A stretch of DNA of 64,000 nt from Escherichia coli (GTDB lineage: Bacteria; Pseudomonadota; Gammaproteobacteria; Enterobacterales; Enterobacteriaceae). Where the stretch lies: NCBI RefSeq assembly GCF_030013595.1, contig NZ_CP122768.1. One strand, given 5' to 3'. This document shows, one piece after another, positions 3,001 through 6,000 of the stretch; within the stretch, counting starts at the first letter, position 1; each line of letters begins with the position of its first letter. A program made the position numbers.

Positions 3001-6000
3001 CCAGAGCTGTGGTTTGTATTTACTGAAAGGAAGATAAAGCAGAGGTAAACACTGTTGCGGTGAACGGAGAAGACTGAAATTATTCTCCGTAATTACAAAC
3101 AACAGTGATCTGATCCGGTTTTTTTACCGTTACGGGTTTCCGGGGATCAATTTTATAGACCGGGGTAATGACCACGCCGGAATTTATGGAGAAAAGCGGG
3201 ATCCAGCAATAAACGTCCGGATATTTCTGTGTCTCCGGAATACCTTTTGCGCCAGAGGCCATCAGATCTTTAACGCTCACGAAAAATGACTGCCGCAGAT
3301 CAAAAAAGTACTCGTCATATATCACGTCTTTTGCCAGCAGGATGACTGCATTACCAACAGCCGCTTTTACAGGTGTTTCACCGGATGGATTATCGTGATT
3401 GTATATTGTTCTTTCAATATAAATAAAACAGGCATATTTTGCCTTCTCCCCGGACAGTTGCATCTGGTATTCGCAAATGTCTTTGATACGCCGGCTTTCA
3501 ACCCGTCCAATCATCTTATCCCGGCGATAGTGTCTTTTATGTTTCAGCGCGTATAGAACACCATTTGAACTGTCAAACTCCAGGATTCTTTTGGTGAAAA
3601 GTTTGTTTTCCCAGATTTCCAGACAATACTTCTCTGCACTGACGACATTGCGTTTGTGAGGAAGATCCCGTTGATACACTCCATTTAATAAGCGTGACTG
3701 CAGTTTGCCTGCAAGTTGATAATAACAGTTAATATCGTTAAGGACAGGTGCTGTGGCGCTGAGTAATGCGTCGATTACCTTAGAGCGCGAAAGTTTGTGG
3801 GTATGACAGTACTCATCCACAATTCGCAGCGTCTCATCACTGGTCATATTGAAAGTTATACGTGTTGTCATGATGAAGTTTTCTGTTAATCATATTGGTT
3901 GATATGCATAACATTCCATAAAAAACACTGTTAATTCATATAATTAATTTTTTGTGTGTTTTTGTCCTTGAGTGGTGGAAAGCAGGGTTACTGCCACTGT
4001 ACTCAGCATAACTCTATCACATAGAACCACAGAAAATGAAGCATTGCTCAGGGGGGAGGTACTTATACGAGTTCTCTGAACCGTGATAACCAGTATTTTT
4101 CATTTTGGGTGATTTGTCGTTACAGCTACAGGCAGTTCATGTACTATTAAAAAATAATTAAGGTTAATTAGTATTATTTATAGAAGTATGGTTATGTAAA
4201 TGAACCCTGTAATTCTGTAATTCCACCTTGTAACCCAATCCTGTAGACGAATCTCTCATAAAGATATGCTCATAGAAGTATCTGTACAGAGATATTCTCT
4301 GTAGTAGTACTTGTAACTCTGTCCTTAACTCTCTCTGCTGTAATGTAATCTCGTAACACCTGAATATAAATCTGTCATGTACACACACTGACTGTAATGT
4401 ACTTTGTTAAGTAATGCCTGTTGTGTGGAGGCTATTCTGGCTAAATAAGAGTATGAATCGTCAGTGTCAATAGTGTGGATAACGGTGGTTGAGGGATTTA
4501 CTGTTAATGATCTGCTCTTGCAACTCACCTGATGAGTATTAGTGGTAATACATAATCTTACTCGTAAAAAAGTATACCTTATGCCATTAAACAGCCTTCC
4601 GGAGTGTTGTTTACTATCCGATTGCCTCTGTTACTTCTGTAATGCATTAATACGTGTAACGCCACGTTACTTGTAATATCTGGTTATGGCGTTATGCCTT
4701 CAGCATTTAAAATATTTTATTACCGGAGAGACAGGAAAGTGGAAAGACTTCCGGGATGACGTCAGAATACGTTATTCTAACGGTATTATGTTAACGTTAA
4801 TCACAGCACAAAATAACGAGAGGATAATGGAAGTTAAGACCAAAGAAGACTGGCTATATCAGTTTCGTCGTTGTTTATCCCGGGAGACACTGGAAAAAGT
4901 GATTTCCCACACGCGTTATAAACTTACCCCTGCGGAGCTGGAAGCTTTCAACTCTGCGGTCGATCACCGGCTGGCAGAACTGACCATGAACAAACTTTAC
5001 GATCGTGTTCCCGCTTCAGTCTGGAAATATGTTACCTGATAAATGTTTCTGATGAAGTACAGTCGTCACAATGACATCATATCAGATATTATCTGCGCTG
5101 TGATTGACAGTCACGTATGCCGTTCTCTGTATGGTTCTGATACCCGGGTGTGCTCCCACTTTCTCTGTGGCGCCCGGGGAGTTGTGAACTTGCACGTCTT
5201 CGTGTGATAACGTTTTCTTCAAAAATTACGCCAGCGCTTCTTCCTGTGTTACAGAACACGAGGAAGAAACATGAATACTTACAATGCCAATCCCGGTTAC
5301 GAAATGGATCCCCAGCTCCTGACACACTTTAACCAGCATCTGGATTCATTATTCGGGGTCTATTCGAAGCTGTTACCGTTCAGAATGGATTTTGCTTACC
5401 GAAAAAACACATTCAGCTACGGATGCGCCTGCAGGTACGCCATGTGCGCGGAGATGCTGCAACTGATTAACGAGGTGGGAGAGAAACTGGTCGGGTATGC
5501 CTGGGTAATGGAATATACGGAACGTAAAGGGCTTCACATTCATTTTGTGGGCTATCTGAACGGTCAGAGCCACAGGAGTTCGTATCTGGTATCCAGATTG
5601 ATGGGAGATATCTGGAGGCGGGTTACCGATGGTAATGGTTACTACCACTGGTGCCGGTTTAATAAAAATTATCCGGTAAACATTAATCACGTCATTCACT
5701 ATTCAGACCACAAAGCGGTGAATGCTTTACGCTATGCCATTAGCTACCTTGCCAAACGAGAACAGAAAGAATGTGGCATCGTTCTTGGTTGCAGCAGGCT
5801 TCCTGAAAAAAGTCACCGGGGGCGACCGCGACTGGACAGCACCCTGCCGGGGATATGTTCTCAGGTATAAGGTTCTGAGCGACAACTGCGGACTGGCTCT
5901 AATCTTTGCAGTCGGTTCCGGAGGCTACTTCAGAGGCACTATGCATTTTTTACGATGTGGTTACTCCGTATGAACGAAACCATACGGAGACTTAACCATA

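What the first reader, a model, noticed from the sequence alone, without database searches (positions are those of the whole stretch)
5271..5989. HUH Rep-like gene followed by a perfect hairpin: remnant replication or nicking module
The 199-aa product carries a HUH-like motif (HIHFVGY) and a downstream Tyr motif (AISYLAK), as in rolling-circle initiators and the inovirus Gp2/YagK-YfjJ proteins common in P4-like islands. About 90 bp after its stop is a perfect 9-bp-stem hairpin (5964-5989) with no U-tract, the kind of structure HUH enzymes nick. With the repeat region upstream, this resembles a compact rep/ori module of an integrated element.
Basis: partly seen in the sequence, partly recalled or inferred. 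Interest (0 to 1): 0.45.

Follow-up and report, generated by a model that had tools for sequence, protein, structure and literature searches.

The report
HUH gene plus orphaned leader hairpin
The gene is an intact, already-annotated HUH-nuclease-like ("inovirus Gp2 / YagK-YfjJ") gene of a pheV genomic island in E. coli, and the hairpin after it is not its nicking site but the leftover ribosome-binding-site-masking leader of a second, deleted copy of the same kind of gene.

Summary
Observation confirmed; interpretation partly supported.

The gene:
- ORF 5271-5870 encodes a 199-aa protein that RefSeq already names "inovirus-type Gp2 protein".
- It is a divergent branch of the YagK/YfjJ HUH family: Pfam hits fall just below threshold, and hhalign to classic YfjJ-type proteins gives 94.6%.
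- R38, D40, E81, H89, H91, Y159 and K162 are invariant across 39 distant relatives.
- The predicted fold matches Rep and NS1 nucleases.
- The gene is under purifying selection (dN/dS 0.12-0.26), so it is not a remnant.

The hairpin:
- The 9-bp hairpin at 5964-5989 is real.
- Its homologue in sister islands lies directly upstream of a classic yfjJ-type gene, with GGAG in the 3' arm 8 nt before the ATG.
- One E. coli genome of 5,426 keeps both genes in tandem.
- In the window, 6002-6074 is the decayed first ~85 nt of that second gene, fused at a CTGAC microhomology.
- Such hairpins occur in 14 of 15 family leaders against 13% of control genes. Their stems differ between genera and co-vary.

The best reading is a translational throttle, as in IS200 tnpA. 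A nick-site or origin role is not excluded. The gene's DNA-nicking role is inferred, not shown.

The parts
5271..5870 (+). Intact 199-aa HUH-type gene of the 'inovirus-type Gp2' / divergent YagK-YfjJ subfamily. Motif I is R38/D40, the metal ligands are E81/H89/H91, the catalytic Tyr candidate is Y159 with K162, and the C-terminal motif is RGRPR (residues 183-187).
5238..5268 (+). The 199-aa gene's own leader hairpin: TTCTTCCT-GTGTT / ACAG / AACAC-(G)-AGGAAGAA, 13 bp. The Shine-Dalgarno sequence GAGGAAG (5260-5266) lies in the 3' arm, and the ATG is at 5271.
   Evidence: RNA fold -15.5 kcal/mol, z = -3.4. Identical in L003 and L037. Analogous hairpins occur in the Orbus, Limnobaculum and Hafnia homologues.
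5221..5229 (+). A-run + TTAC motif (AAAAATTAC), 8 nt 5' of the leader hairpin. Function unknown.
   Evidence: It recurs before leader hairpins in other genera as AAAAGTTAC, AAAAAATTAC or TTTTTTTAC.
5945..5954 (+). T-run + TAC motif (ATTTTTTACG) 5' of the orphan hairpin.
   Evidence: Invariant in all E. coli and related-genus leaders aligned.
5956..6000 (+). Orphan leader hairpin of the deleted classic yfjJ-type paralogue. The core stem is 5964-5972 / 5981-5989 with loop 5973-5980. The outer stem is 5956-5963 / 5993-6000. The Shine-Dalgarno sequence GGAG is at 5986-5989.
   Evidence: It is homologous to the sequence directly upstream of intact classic genes in L002, L013 and L042.
6002..6074 (+). 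Pseudogene remnant: the decayed first ~85 nt of the classic yfjJ-type gene. The ATG is at 6002 and a TAA stop at 6014-6016. The deletion junction is at CTGAC, 6070-6074.
   Evidence: Alignment A6 to the intact genes in L042 and L002 and to the longer remnant in L043. This segment shows the lowest identity between islands, 59-76%.
6076..6245 (+). Conserved non-coding block between the remnant and the zinc-ribbon genes. It begins with a second GTTTTTTACG (6076-6085).
   Evidence: 92-93% identity between islands whose flanks are 59-89% identical. It is also shared with islands that carry only the classic gene.
4827..5039 (+). hha paralogue immediately upstream, on the same strand.
   Evidence: Pfam HHA 3e-26, NCBIfam Hha 3e-30. 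RefSeq annotation.
6246..7057 (+). Two overlapping DUF7828 + Zn_ribbon_11 genes (6246-6635 and 6632-7057). They are conserved neighbours of Gp2-like genes.
   Evidence: The same neighbours are seen in L002, L003, L041, L042 and L046.
2491..2697 (-). AlpA-family HTH / excisionase-like regulator of the island.
   Evidence: Pfam Phage_AlpA 4e-9.
18822..20360 (-). P4-type tyrosine integrase (18822-20087) next to tRNA-Phe (20285-20360). This is the island's attachment end.

Best explanation
The window holds part of a pheV-integrated genomic island of the P4-integrase/AlpA type.

Shown:
- ORF 5271-5870 is an intact, selectively constrained member of a divergent branch of the YagK/YfjJ ('inovirus Gp2-like') family.
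- It has the HUH single-strand-DNA nuclease signature and fold.
- The ancestral arrangement was two such genes in tandem, each preceded by its own leader.
- Here the second, classic yfjJ-type gene lost about 650 bp between two CTGAC microhomologies. What remains is its leader (T-run, hairpin 5956-6000 with GGAG in the 3' arm, ATG at 6002) and about 70 nt of decayed coding sequence.
- The 199-aa gene has its own equivalent leader at 5238-5268.

Inferred:
- In the mRNA these hairpins pair the Shine-Dalgarno sequence with an upstream anti-SD arm. This keeps translation of the HUH protein low, as the 5'UTR stem-loop of IS200 does for its HUH transposase.
- The protein nicks island DNA through Y159, using a metal bound by E81/H89/H91. 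This would start rolling-circle-type replication or transfer of the excised island.
- Neither the substrate nor the nicking activity is shown.
For: Gene identity:
- RefSeq names it 'inovirus-type Gp2 protein' in 607 genomes.
- PF23343 scores 4e-5 and PF11726 1.6e-4, both just under threshold.
- Profile-profile match to classic YfjJ-type proteins: 94.6% probability, E = 7e-8, 168 columns, motifs collinear.
- 2,198 library relatives.
- R38, D40, E81, H89, H91, W115, Y159 and K162 are invariant in 39 members down to 19% identity.
- AF2 pLDDT is 81.7, with strand/helix order as in Rep-class HUH domains.
- Foldseek top PDB hits are B19 NS1 nuclease, WDV Rep, RAYT, circovirus Rep and AAV Rep.
- 43 BFVD hits at E <= 1e-3, headed by 'Inovirus Gp2' (3e-8, TM 0.64).
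- dN/dS is 0.12-0.26.

Orphan status of the hairpin:
- Homologous sequence lies directly before the ATG of intact classic genes.
- The intact tandem form occurs in NZ_CP129383.
- The remnant aligns to the gene's 5' end.
- An independent 5'-truncated second copy occurs in Limnobaculum.

Leader function:
- 14 of 15 family leaders have z <= -1.9 and at least 7 of 12 SD-window bases paired, against 13% of 60 control genes from the same loci (Mann-Whitney p = 4e-6).
- Stems differ between genera, with 89% of cells paired against 30-52% for slid controls.
- Four pairs show changes on both sides.
- There are 10 G.U cells on the sense strand against 1 A.C.
- Precedent: IS200 tnpA (PMC4513863).

Context: Gp2-like genes are listed among the likely core genes of intY/alpA islands, whose excised form is circular or concatemeric (PMC12595487).
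Against: - No transcription start data: it is not shown that the hairpins are in an mRNA.
- Energy comparison of the two strands shows no preference once composition is controlled (z = -3.14 against -2.98).
- The G.U asymmetry rests on about 5-6 independent events.
- The apex motif (T/G)ATGAAC and an A/T-run + TAC 5' of the hairpin are conserved in sequence across distant homologues. A pure SD-masking stem does not require this.
- The orphan stem is still perfect although its gene is gone.
- The leader is absent from some family members (L014-L019, L044, L046, L047).
- Pfam thresholds are not reached.
- No nicking, replication or transfer has been shown for any YagK/YfjJ protein (literature search).
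Confidence: 0.62

Rival explanations
1. The A/T-run + hairpin unit is the DNA site (nick site, origin or oriT, or operator) recognised by the HUH proteins. The island is then a rolling-circle replicating or mobilisable element, and overlap with the ribosome-binding site is secondary or serves autoregulation.
For: - A hairpin sits immediately 5' of HUH genes across the family.
- The apex motif (T/G)ATGAAC and the A/T-run + TAC are conserved while the stems change.
- The orphan hairpin and T-run are unchanged in four islands whose adjacent remnant has decayed to 59-76% identity.
- HUH origins commonly lie just upstream of rep (established knowledge for CRESS viruses and pMV158-type plasmids).
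- A 4.76-kb Acinetobacter plasmid with its own Rep also carries a Gp2-type gene, which suggests an accessory nicking role.
- An excised related island is circular or concatemeric (PMC12595487).
Against: - The 3' arm always contains the SD at 5-12 nt from the ATG, which a DNA site has no need for.
- The distance from TTAC to the hairpin foot varies from 1 to 12 nt, which is awkward for fixed nick geometry.
- There are no iterons beside the hairpin.
- Sense-strand G.U pairs are tolerated.
- The plasmid homologue has no such leader.
- Expected against observed changes in the orphan stem (about 3 against 1) are not significantly different.
Confidence: 0.2
2. The hairpin mainly reflects an antisense RNA. 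A counter-transcript starts inside the 5' end of the HUH gene and folds and ends at the leader, repressing translation as art200 does in IS200 or as ctRNAs do in rolling-circle plasmids.
For: - On the minus strand the A-run type leaders read hairpin, then 0-10 nt, then GUAAUUUUU.
- A promoter-like site lies on the minus strand at 5376->5348.
- Minus-strand folds are as non-random as plus-strand folds.
- Precedent in IS200.
Against: - The classic, T-run type leader, including the hairpin in question, has an A-run and not a U-run after the stem on the minus strand.
- The promoter match is 9 of 12 and within chance expectation (8 found against 7.0 expected).
- The G.U against A.C counts favour the sense strand.
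Confidence: 0.08
3. The hairpin is a 3' element of the 199-aa gene's transcript: a U-tract-less terminator or a stabiliser against 3' exonucleases.
For: It lies 93 nt after the stop codon with no gene between. It is very stable (-21.5 kcal/mol). It is retained in about 800 genomes with this arrangement.
Against: There is no U-tract. Its position is fully explained by descent from the leader of the next gene. In most genomes the same sequence has no Gp2-type gene upstream of it.
Confidence: 0.07

Closest known systems
YagK / YfjJ of E. coli CP4-6 and CP4-57 islands (Pfam PF11726 YagK_YfjJ_C; RefSeq 'inovirus Gp2 family protein')
   Same: Same island type and the same neighbours (AlpA, paired DUF7828 zinc-ribbon genes). 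Same length class. Collinear motifs RxD, E, HUH and YLAK. Profile-profile probability 94.6%.
   Different: Pairwise similarity is not significant, and PF11726 scores 22.1 bits against a cut-off of 25.8. It has an extra Tyr (Y155) and a C-terminal RGRPR motif in place of ERNFGCS. It forms its own subfamily of about 190-200 aa proteins in Enterobacterales. No member of either branch has a tested function.
Rolling-circle initiators: REP_ORF2-G2P domain (PF23343), inovirus gpII, CRESS-virus and parvovirus Rep/NS1 nuclease domains
   Same: HUH + YxxK signature, order of secondary-structure elements and predicted fold. The best structural matches are these nucleases.
   Different: There is no filamentous-phage or ssDNA-virus genome around it. 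It sits in a chromosomal island of at least 20 kb beside BREX genes. There is no helicase domain. Only 2 weak hits were found in 50,697 phage records. No origin has been identified.
IS200 tnpA 5'UTR stem-loop (with antisense art200)
   Same: A small HUH-enzyme gene whose Shine-Dalgarno sequence is buried in the 3' arm of a conserved leader hairpin. In IS200 this was shown to block 30S binding and limit transposition (PMC4513863).
   Different: No sequence relationship. The protein here is Rep-class (Tyr after HUH), not a Y1 transposase. There are no transposon ends. Repression is not tested here. No Rfam family matches.
intY/alpA genomic islands carrying defence cargo (I23/I44/I55 of Pseudomonas, PNAS 2025)
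   Same: Tyrosine integrase + AlpA + RadC + Gp2-like protein + defence-system cargo. Gp2-like is listed among the likely core functions (PMC12595487). The sister E. coli island has RadC and a full BREX system.
   Different: Different genus and integration site. The role of the Gp2-like gene was not tested there either. Transfer by a helper phage is unknown for the E. coli island.

Membership tests
HUH endonuclease superfamily (Rep class) | HUH motif: two His separated by a hydrophobic residue on a beta-strand | tested here: met
   H89-I-H91 is invariant in 39 relatives and lies in predicted strand 87-97.
HUH endonuclease superfamily (Rep class) | Catalytic Tyr on a helix C-terminal to HUH, usually YxxK | tested here: met
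   Y159 and K162 are invariant, in predicted helix 147-161.
HUH endonuclease superfamily (Rep class) | Third metal ligand (Glu, Gln, Asp or His) near the HUH strand | tested here: inconclusive
   E81 is invariant and lies on the neighbouring strand 75-83. The model coordinates could not be inspected for geometry.
HUH endonuclease superfamily (Rep class) | Fold: antiparallel sheet with flanking helices, matching solved HUH nucleases | tested here: inconclusive
HUH endonuclease superfamily (Rep class) | Metal-dependent ssDNA cleavage with a covalent 5'-phosphotyrosine link | not testable with these tools
   Needs purified protein.
Pfam PF11726 YagK_YfjJ_C / PF23343 REP_ORF2-G2P | Score at or above the curated gathering threshold | tested here: not met
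   22.1 against 25.8 bits, and 24.2 against 27.8 bits. Homology is nevertheless supported by hhalign at 94.6% and by relatives that do pass.
Inovirus gpII replication initiator | Encoded in a filamentous-phage genome, with ssDNA-binding, coat and assembly genes and a defined origin | tested here: not met
   The neighbours are hha, zinc-ribbon genes, AlpA, BREX and a P4-type integrase. There are almost no hits in phage records.
SD-sequestering leader hairpin (IS200-tnpA type cis-regulator) | The 3' arm of a stable hairpin pairs the Shine-Dalgarno sequence just upstream of the start codon | tested here: met
   5238-5268 pairs GAGGAAG, and 5956-6000 pairs GGAG. 14 of 15 family leaders do this, against 13% of controls.
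SD-sequestering leader hairpin (IS200-tnpA type cis-regulator) | Structure kept through compensatory change | tested here: met
   89% of cells paired against 30-52% for slid controls. Four pairs changed on both sides. The covariation score was reached by 2 of 500 shuffles. The sample is small (8 distinct sequences).
SD-sequestering leader hairpin (IS200-tnpA type cis-regulator) | The hairpin is part of the mRNA, and disrupting it raises translation | not testable with these tools
   No transcription start data are held. The only lead is a weak promoter-like site about 125 nt upstream in L002.
Rolling-circle double-strand origin / oriT | Conserved nick sequence at a fixed place in or beside the hairpin | tested here: inconclusive
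   The apex (T/G)ATGAAC and an A/T-run + TAC are conserved, but the spacing to the stem varies from 1 to 12 nt.
Rolling-circle double-strand origin / oriT | Initiator-binding direct repeats next to the nick region | tested here: not met
   No direct-repeat family lies near either hairpin.
Intrinsic terminator | GC-rich stem directly followed by a U-tract | tested here: not met
   ACTTAACC follows the stem, and the terminator scan does not report it.

The most novel reading that the evidence does not exclude
The A/T-run + hairpin unit in front of YagK/YfjJ-type genes doubles as the DNA site that these HUH proteins nick or bind. The very common AlpA/P4-integrase defence islands of Enterobacterales would then replicate or be handed over by a rolling-circle mechanism after excision. 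The orphan hairpin at 5956-6000 would be retained because the surviving 199-aa paralogue still uses it.
Probability: 0.15. Interest if true: 0.65.

Novelty: new member of a known kind. Interest (0 to 1): 0.3.

Why it matters
YagK/YfjJ-type genes occur in most E. coli genomes: 4,351 of 5,426 matched the chimeric 722-nt probe, which joins the 3' end of the 199-aa gene, the leader and the 5' part of a classic gene. They are also listed among the likely core genes of a widespread class of defence-carrying islands. No member has a tested function.

This locus gives three concrete handles:
- the residues to mutate (E81, H89, H91, Y159);
- two short candidate substrates or operators (5215-5275 and 5940-6005);
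- a natural comparison between islands with one, two, or one-and-a-remnant copies.

The conserved leader hairpin is absent from Rfam. It suggests that expression of these nucleases is kept tightly low, as it is for transposases.

For annotation, 6002-6074 is a pseudogene remnant, and the RefSeq 'hypothetical protein' that overlaps it in sister genomes is probably spurious.

Tried and rejected
- Rfam at permissive E-value over 1-8000: nothing relevant.
- PDB sequence search with the family profile: only spurious Kelch-repeat designs.
- Strand test by folding energy: the minus strand looked 1.8 kcal/mol more stable with twice the G.U pairs. Shuffles showed this to be a composition effect, with z-scores equal, so it was rejected as evidence.
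- Iterons near the hairpins: none.
- The 8-mer GTATGGTT, 4 local copies: largely explained by the hairpin arms plus a 4-nt duplication before the ATG.
- W5-TTACG motif: not enriched in the window as a whole (10 found against 5.1 expected).
- Reading the A/T-run + TAC as a sigma-70 -10 or -35 element: no consistent spacing.
- Reading it as an IS608-like TTAC cleavage site: recalled from memory only, and the variable spacing argues against it.
- ATG or GTG at the hairpin apex as an upstream start: in frame in several genera, but stopped in E. coli and Rosenbergiella and out of frame in Limnobaculum, so not general.
- C-terminal RGRPR as an AT-hook reading the A/T-run: does not fit, because classic-type proteins lack RGRP yet have the run.
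- Viral contig scan for relatives: only 2 loci.
- Leaders of four more distant relatives: only one (L045) has the hairpin.
- Third YagK/YfjJ gene in L042: no such leader.
- Acinetobacter plasmid pALWEK1.14: a Gp2-type gene beside a separate Rep, with a 12-bp inverted repeat upstream but no SD-masking hairpin. Suggestive of an accessory role, not conclusive.
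Full report
**What is in the sequence**

ORF 5271-5870 (+) encodes 199 aa. HIHFVGY is residues 89-95 and AISYLAK is residues 156-162. The hairpin CTCCGTATG / AACGAAAC / CATACGGAG occupies 5964-5989. It starts 93 nt after the stop codon and is followed by ACTTAACC, so it has no U-tract. As DNA it folds at -11.8 kcal/mol (z = -4.67). As RNA the stem extends to 17 pairs (5956-6000) at -21.5 kcal/mol (z = -6.1). Perfect hairpins of 9 bp or more are not rare in this window: about 13 against about 2 expected. The case for this one therefore rests on conservation.

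**Where it is**

The window is Escherichia coli chromosome. The same 1.65 kb occurs at 99.9% identity in several complete genomes. tRNA-Phe lies at 20285-20360 and a P4-type integrase at 18822-20087. The region is therefore a pheV-integrated island. Around the finding lie:
- an AlpA-family gene (2491-2697, minus strand);
- an hha paralogue (4827-5039);
- two DUF7828/zinc-ribbon genes (6246-7057);
- BREX genes from 7322 on.

In this window the BREX system is cut short by an IS5-like element.

**The gene**

RefSeq already calls it 'inovirus-type Gp2 protein' or 'YagK/YfjJ domain-containing protein'.
- Pfam gives PF23343 (REP_ORF2-G2P) at 4e-5 and PF11726 (YagK_YfjJ_C) at 1.6e-4. Both are just under their thresholds. 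NCBIfam gives nothing.
- BLASTP against a classic 189-aa YfjJ-type protein is not significant. Profile against profile, however, gives 94.6% probability, E = 7e-8, over 168 columns with the motifs collinear.
- An exhaustive profile search finds 2,198 cluster representatives. Many are about 360 aa long with the domain in the C-terminal half, and these do pass PF11726.
- In an alignment of 39 members down to 19% identity, R38, D40, E81, H89, H91, W115, Y159, K162, G184 and R187 are invariant. This is the HUH signature: RxD strand, Glu plus two His, and YxxK.
- The AF2 model (pLDDT 81.7) has the element order of Rep-class HUH domains.
- Foldseek against the PDB is headed by parvovirus B19 NS1 nuclease, wheat dwarf virus Rep, a RAYT transposase, circovirus Rep and AAV Rep, but only at E = 3e-3 to 5e-2.
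- Against BFVD there are 43 hits at E <= 1e-3. The first is 'Inovirus Gp2' (3e-8, TM 0.64), followed by NS1, CRESS Rep and microvirus initiators.
- dN/dS against five orthologues is 0.12-0.26, so the gene is maintained and is not a remnant.

**The hairpin belongs to another gene**

A search with the 375 bp after the stop codon found matches in 3,778 genomes. In most of them the match was split in two, with an 'inovirus Gp2 family protein' gene lying between the pieces.
- In such a locus (L002) the homologous hairpin lies directly before that gene...TTCCGTATG AAC CATACGGAG ATTTAACC ATG. GGAG is in the 3' arm, 8 nt before the start codon.
- A chimeric probe found one genome of 5,426 (NZ_CP129383) with both genes intact in tandem and the hairpin in the 122-nt spacer.
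- Alignment shows that window 6002-6074 is the decayed first ~85 nt of the classic gene. The ATG is at 6002 and a stop after four codons. It is fused at CTGAC (6070-6074) to the sequence that normally follows the gene.
- Another island (L043) keeps a longer remnant.
- Limnobaculum has a 199-type gene followed by a 5'-truncated classic copy.

The second paralogue has therefore been lost repeatedly. About 800 E. coli genomes have the same state as the window.

**The leader is a family trait**

Upstream of the 199-aa gene itself lies AAAAATTAC, then 8 nt, then TTCTTCCT-GTGTT/ACAG/AACAC-G-AGGAAGAA (5238-5268). The Shine-Dalgarno sequence GAGGAAG is in the 3' arm, and the fold is -15.5 kcal/mol, z = -3.4.
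- In 33 loci from other Enterobacterales and in homologues of the 199-aa type, the pattern recurs: an A- or T-run ending in TAC, then 1-12 nt, then a hairpin whose 3' arm holds the SD, then the ATG 5-12 nt later.
- The stems are different in different genera: CCGGT/ACCGG, CAGTAATT/AATTACTG, GGCTCTCATG/CATGAGAGCC, CCATGAA/TTCATGG.
- 14 of 15 leaders have z <= -1.9 with at least 7 of 12 SD-window bases paired, against 13% of 60 other genes from the same loci (p = 4e-6).
- On an alignment of nine leaders, 89% of cells pair against 30-52% for slid registers, and four pairs change on both sides.
- G.U cells on the sense strand outnumber A.C cells 10 to 1.
- The trait is not universal: several distant members lack it.

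**How it most likely works**

The constant feature is burial of the SD at a fixed distance from the start codon. A translational throttle is therefore the best-supported function. The experimentally studied parallel is the IS200 tnpA 5'UTR stem-loop, which masks the SD of another HUH enzyme (PMC4513863).

This step is inferred: no transcript ends are known. The nuclease activity of the protein is also inferred, from motifs and fold.

The literature holds no functional study of YagK/YfjJ. One paper lists Gp2-like proteins among the likely core genes of intY/alpA defence islands, and finds that an excised island is circular or concatemeric (PMC12595487).

**What keeps the nick-site reading alive**

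- The apex motif (T/G)ATGAAC and the A/T-run + TAC are conserved in sequence while the stems drift.
- The orphan stem and T-run are unchanged in four islands whose adjacent remnant has fallen to 59-76% identity.
- A 4.76-kb Acinetobacter plasmid that has its own Rep also carries a Gp2-type gene.

Against it:
- the variable spacing between motif and stem;
- the absence of iterons;
- the SD rule.

The energy-based strand test was uninformative once composition was controlled.

**Verdict**

The protein assignment is correct but already annotated. The hairpin is misassigned: it is an orphaned, conserved leader of a deleted paralogue, and the gene has its own copy of the same device. This is an ordinary member of a known but functionally untested family, with a modestly new regulatory detail.

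Noticed in passing
window 6076-6245: The non-coding block upstream of the first zinc-ribbon gene is 92-93% identical between islands whose neighbouring segments are only 59-89% identical. It starts with a second GTTTTTTACG and contains the near-palindrome GCTGTAACAGC. It could be a promoter or regulatory region, or an unrecognised RNA.
   Followed up: partly
window 4207-4643: Five same-strand copies of CTGTAAT lie in 437 bp of an AT-rich (34-38% GC) 800-bp intergenic region upstream of hha. That is 15 copies in the whole window against 6.6 expected. There is no tandem array.
   Followed up: partly
window 5221-5229, 5945-5954, 6076-6085; L041 about 3590-3600: An A- or T-run ending in TTAC/TAC recurs 1-12 nt before the leader hairpins in many genera. 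In Hafnia it also occurs before the alpA gene. Its function is unknown. It is not enriched in the window as a whole.
   Followed up: partly
window 6246-7057: Two overlapping DUF7828 + Zn_ribbon_11 genes follow the Gp2-like gene here. The same is seen in other E. coli islands, in Hafnia (L041), and, as a single such gene, in L046. This is a conserved partnership of unknown function.
   Followed up: no
window 12191-15717: The BREX system is truncated. The pglX ORF (832 aa) lacks its N-terminal part and abuts an IS5-like DDE transposase (14749-15717). brxC, brxB and brxA are absent, whereas the sister island in NZ_CP148466 has the full set.
   Followed up: partly
window 18822-20360: A P4-type integrase lies next to tRNA-Phe, followed by DUF554, speC-like and nupG-like genes. 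The island sits at the pheV site.
   Followed up: yes
window 5817-5831 (residues 183-187): A C-terminal RGRPR motif, with G184 and R187 invariant across 39 relatives. It resembles an AT-hook core, and the tail is predicted to be disordered.
   Followed up: no
window 5376-5348 (minus strand): A promoter-like site inside the 5' part of the gene could drive an antisense RNA across the 5238-5268 leader, which is followed on that strand by GUAAUUUUU. This would parallel IS200 art200. The match is weak (9 of 12).
   Followed up: no
window 6025-6165: RefSeq annotates a 46-aa 'hypothetical protein' here in some sister genomes. It overlaps the pseudogene remnant and the conserved non-coding block, and is probably not a real gene.
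   Followed up: no
L048 (NZ_CP080641.1, 4,760 bp), 3208-3235 and 3387-4430: A small Acinetobacter lwoffii plasmid with its own replication initiator also carries a 347-aa Gp2-type protein. A perfect 12-bp inverted repeat lies about 150 nt upstream of it. In all, 81 of the 107 plasmid records with homologues are from Acinetobacter.
   Followed up: partly
L044 (Logan SRR6315338 contig), 732-5326: A compact four-gene unit: a 360-aa unknown, AlpA, a 368-aa long-form YagK/YfjJ protein and a P4-type integrase. It may be a minimal version of this island type.
   Followed up: no
window 5973-5977 and 5998-6001: Relative to most E. coli leaders, the window copy has a 5-nt insertion in the loop and a 4-nt duplication before the ATG. 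The loop insertion is also present before an intact classic gene in L013. The duplication lengthens the outer stem.
   Followed up: yes
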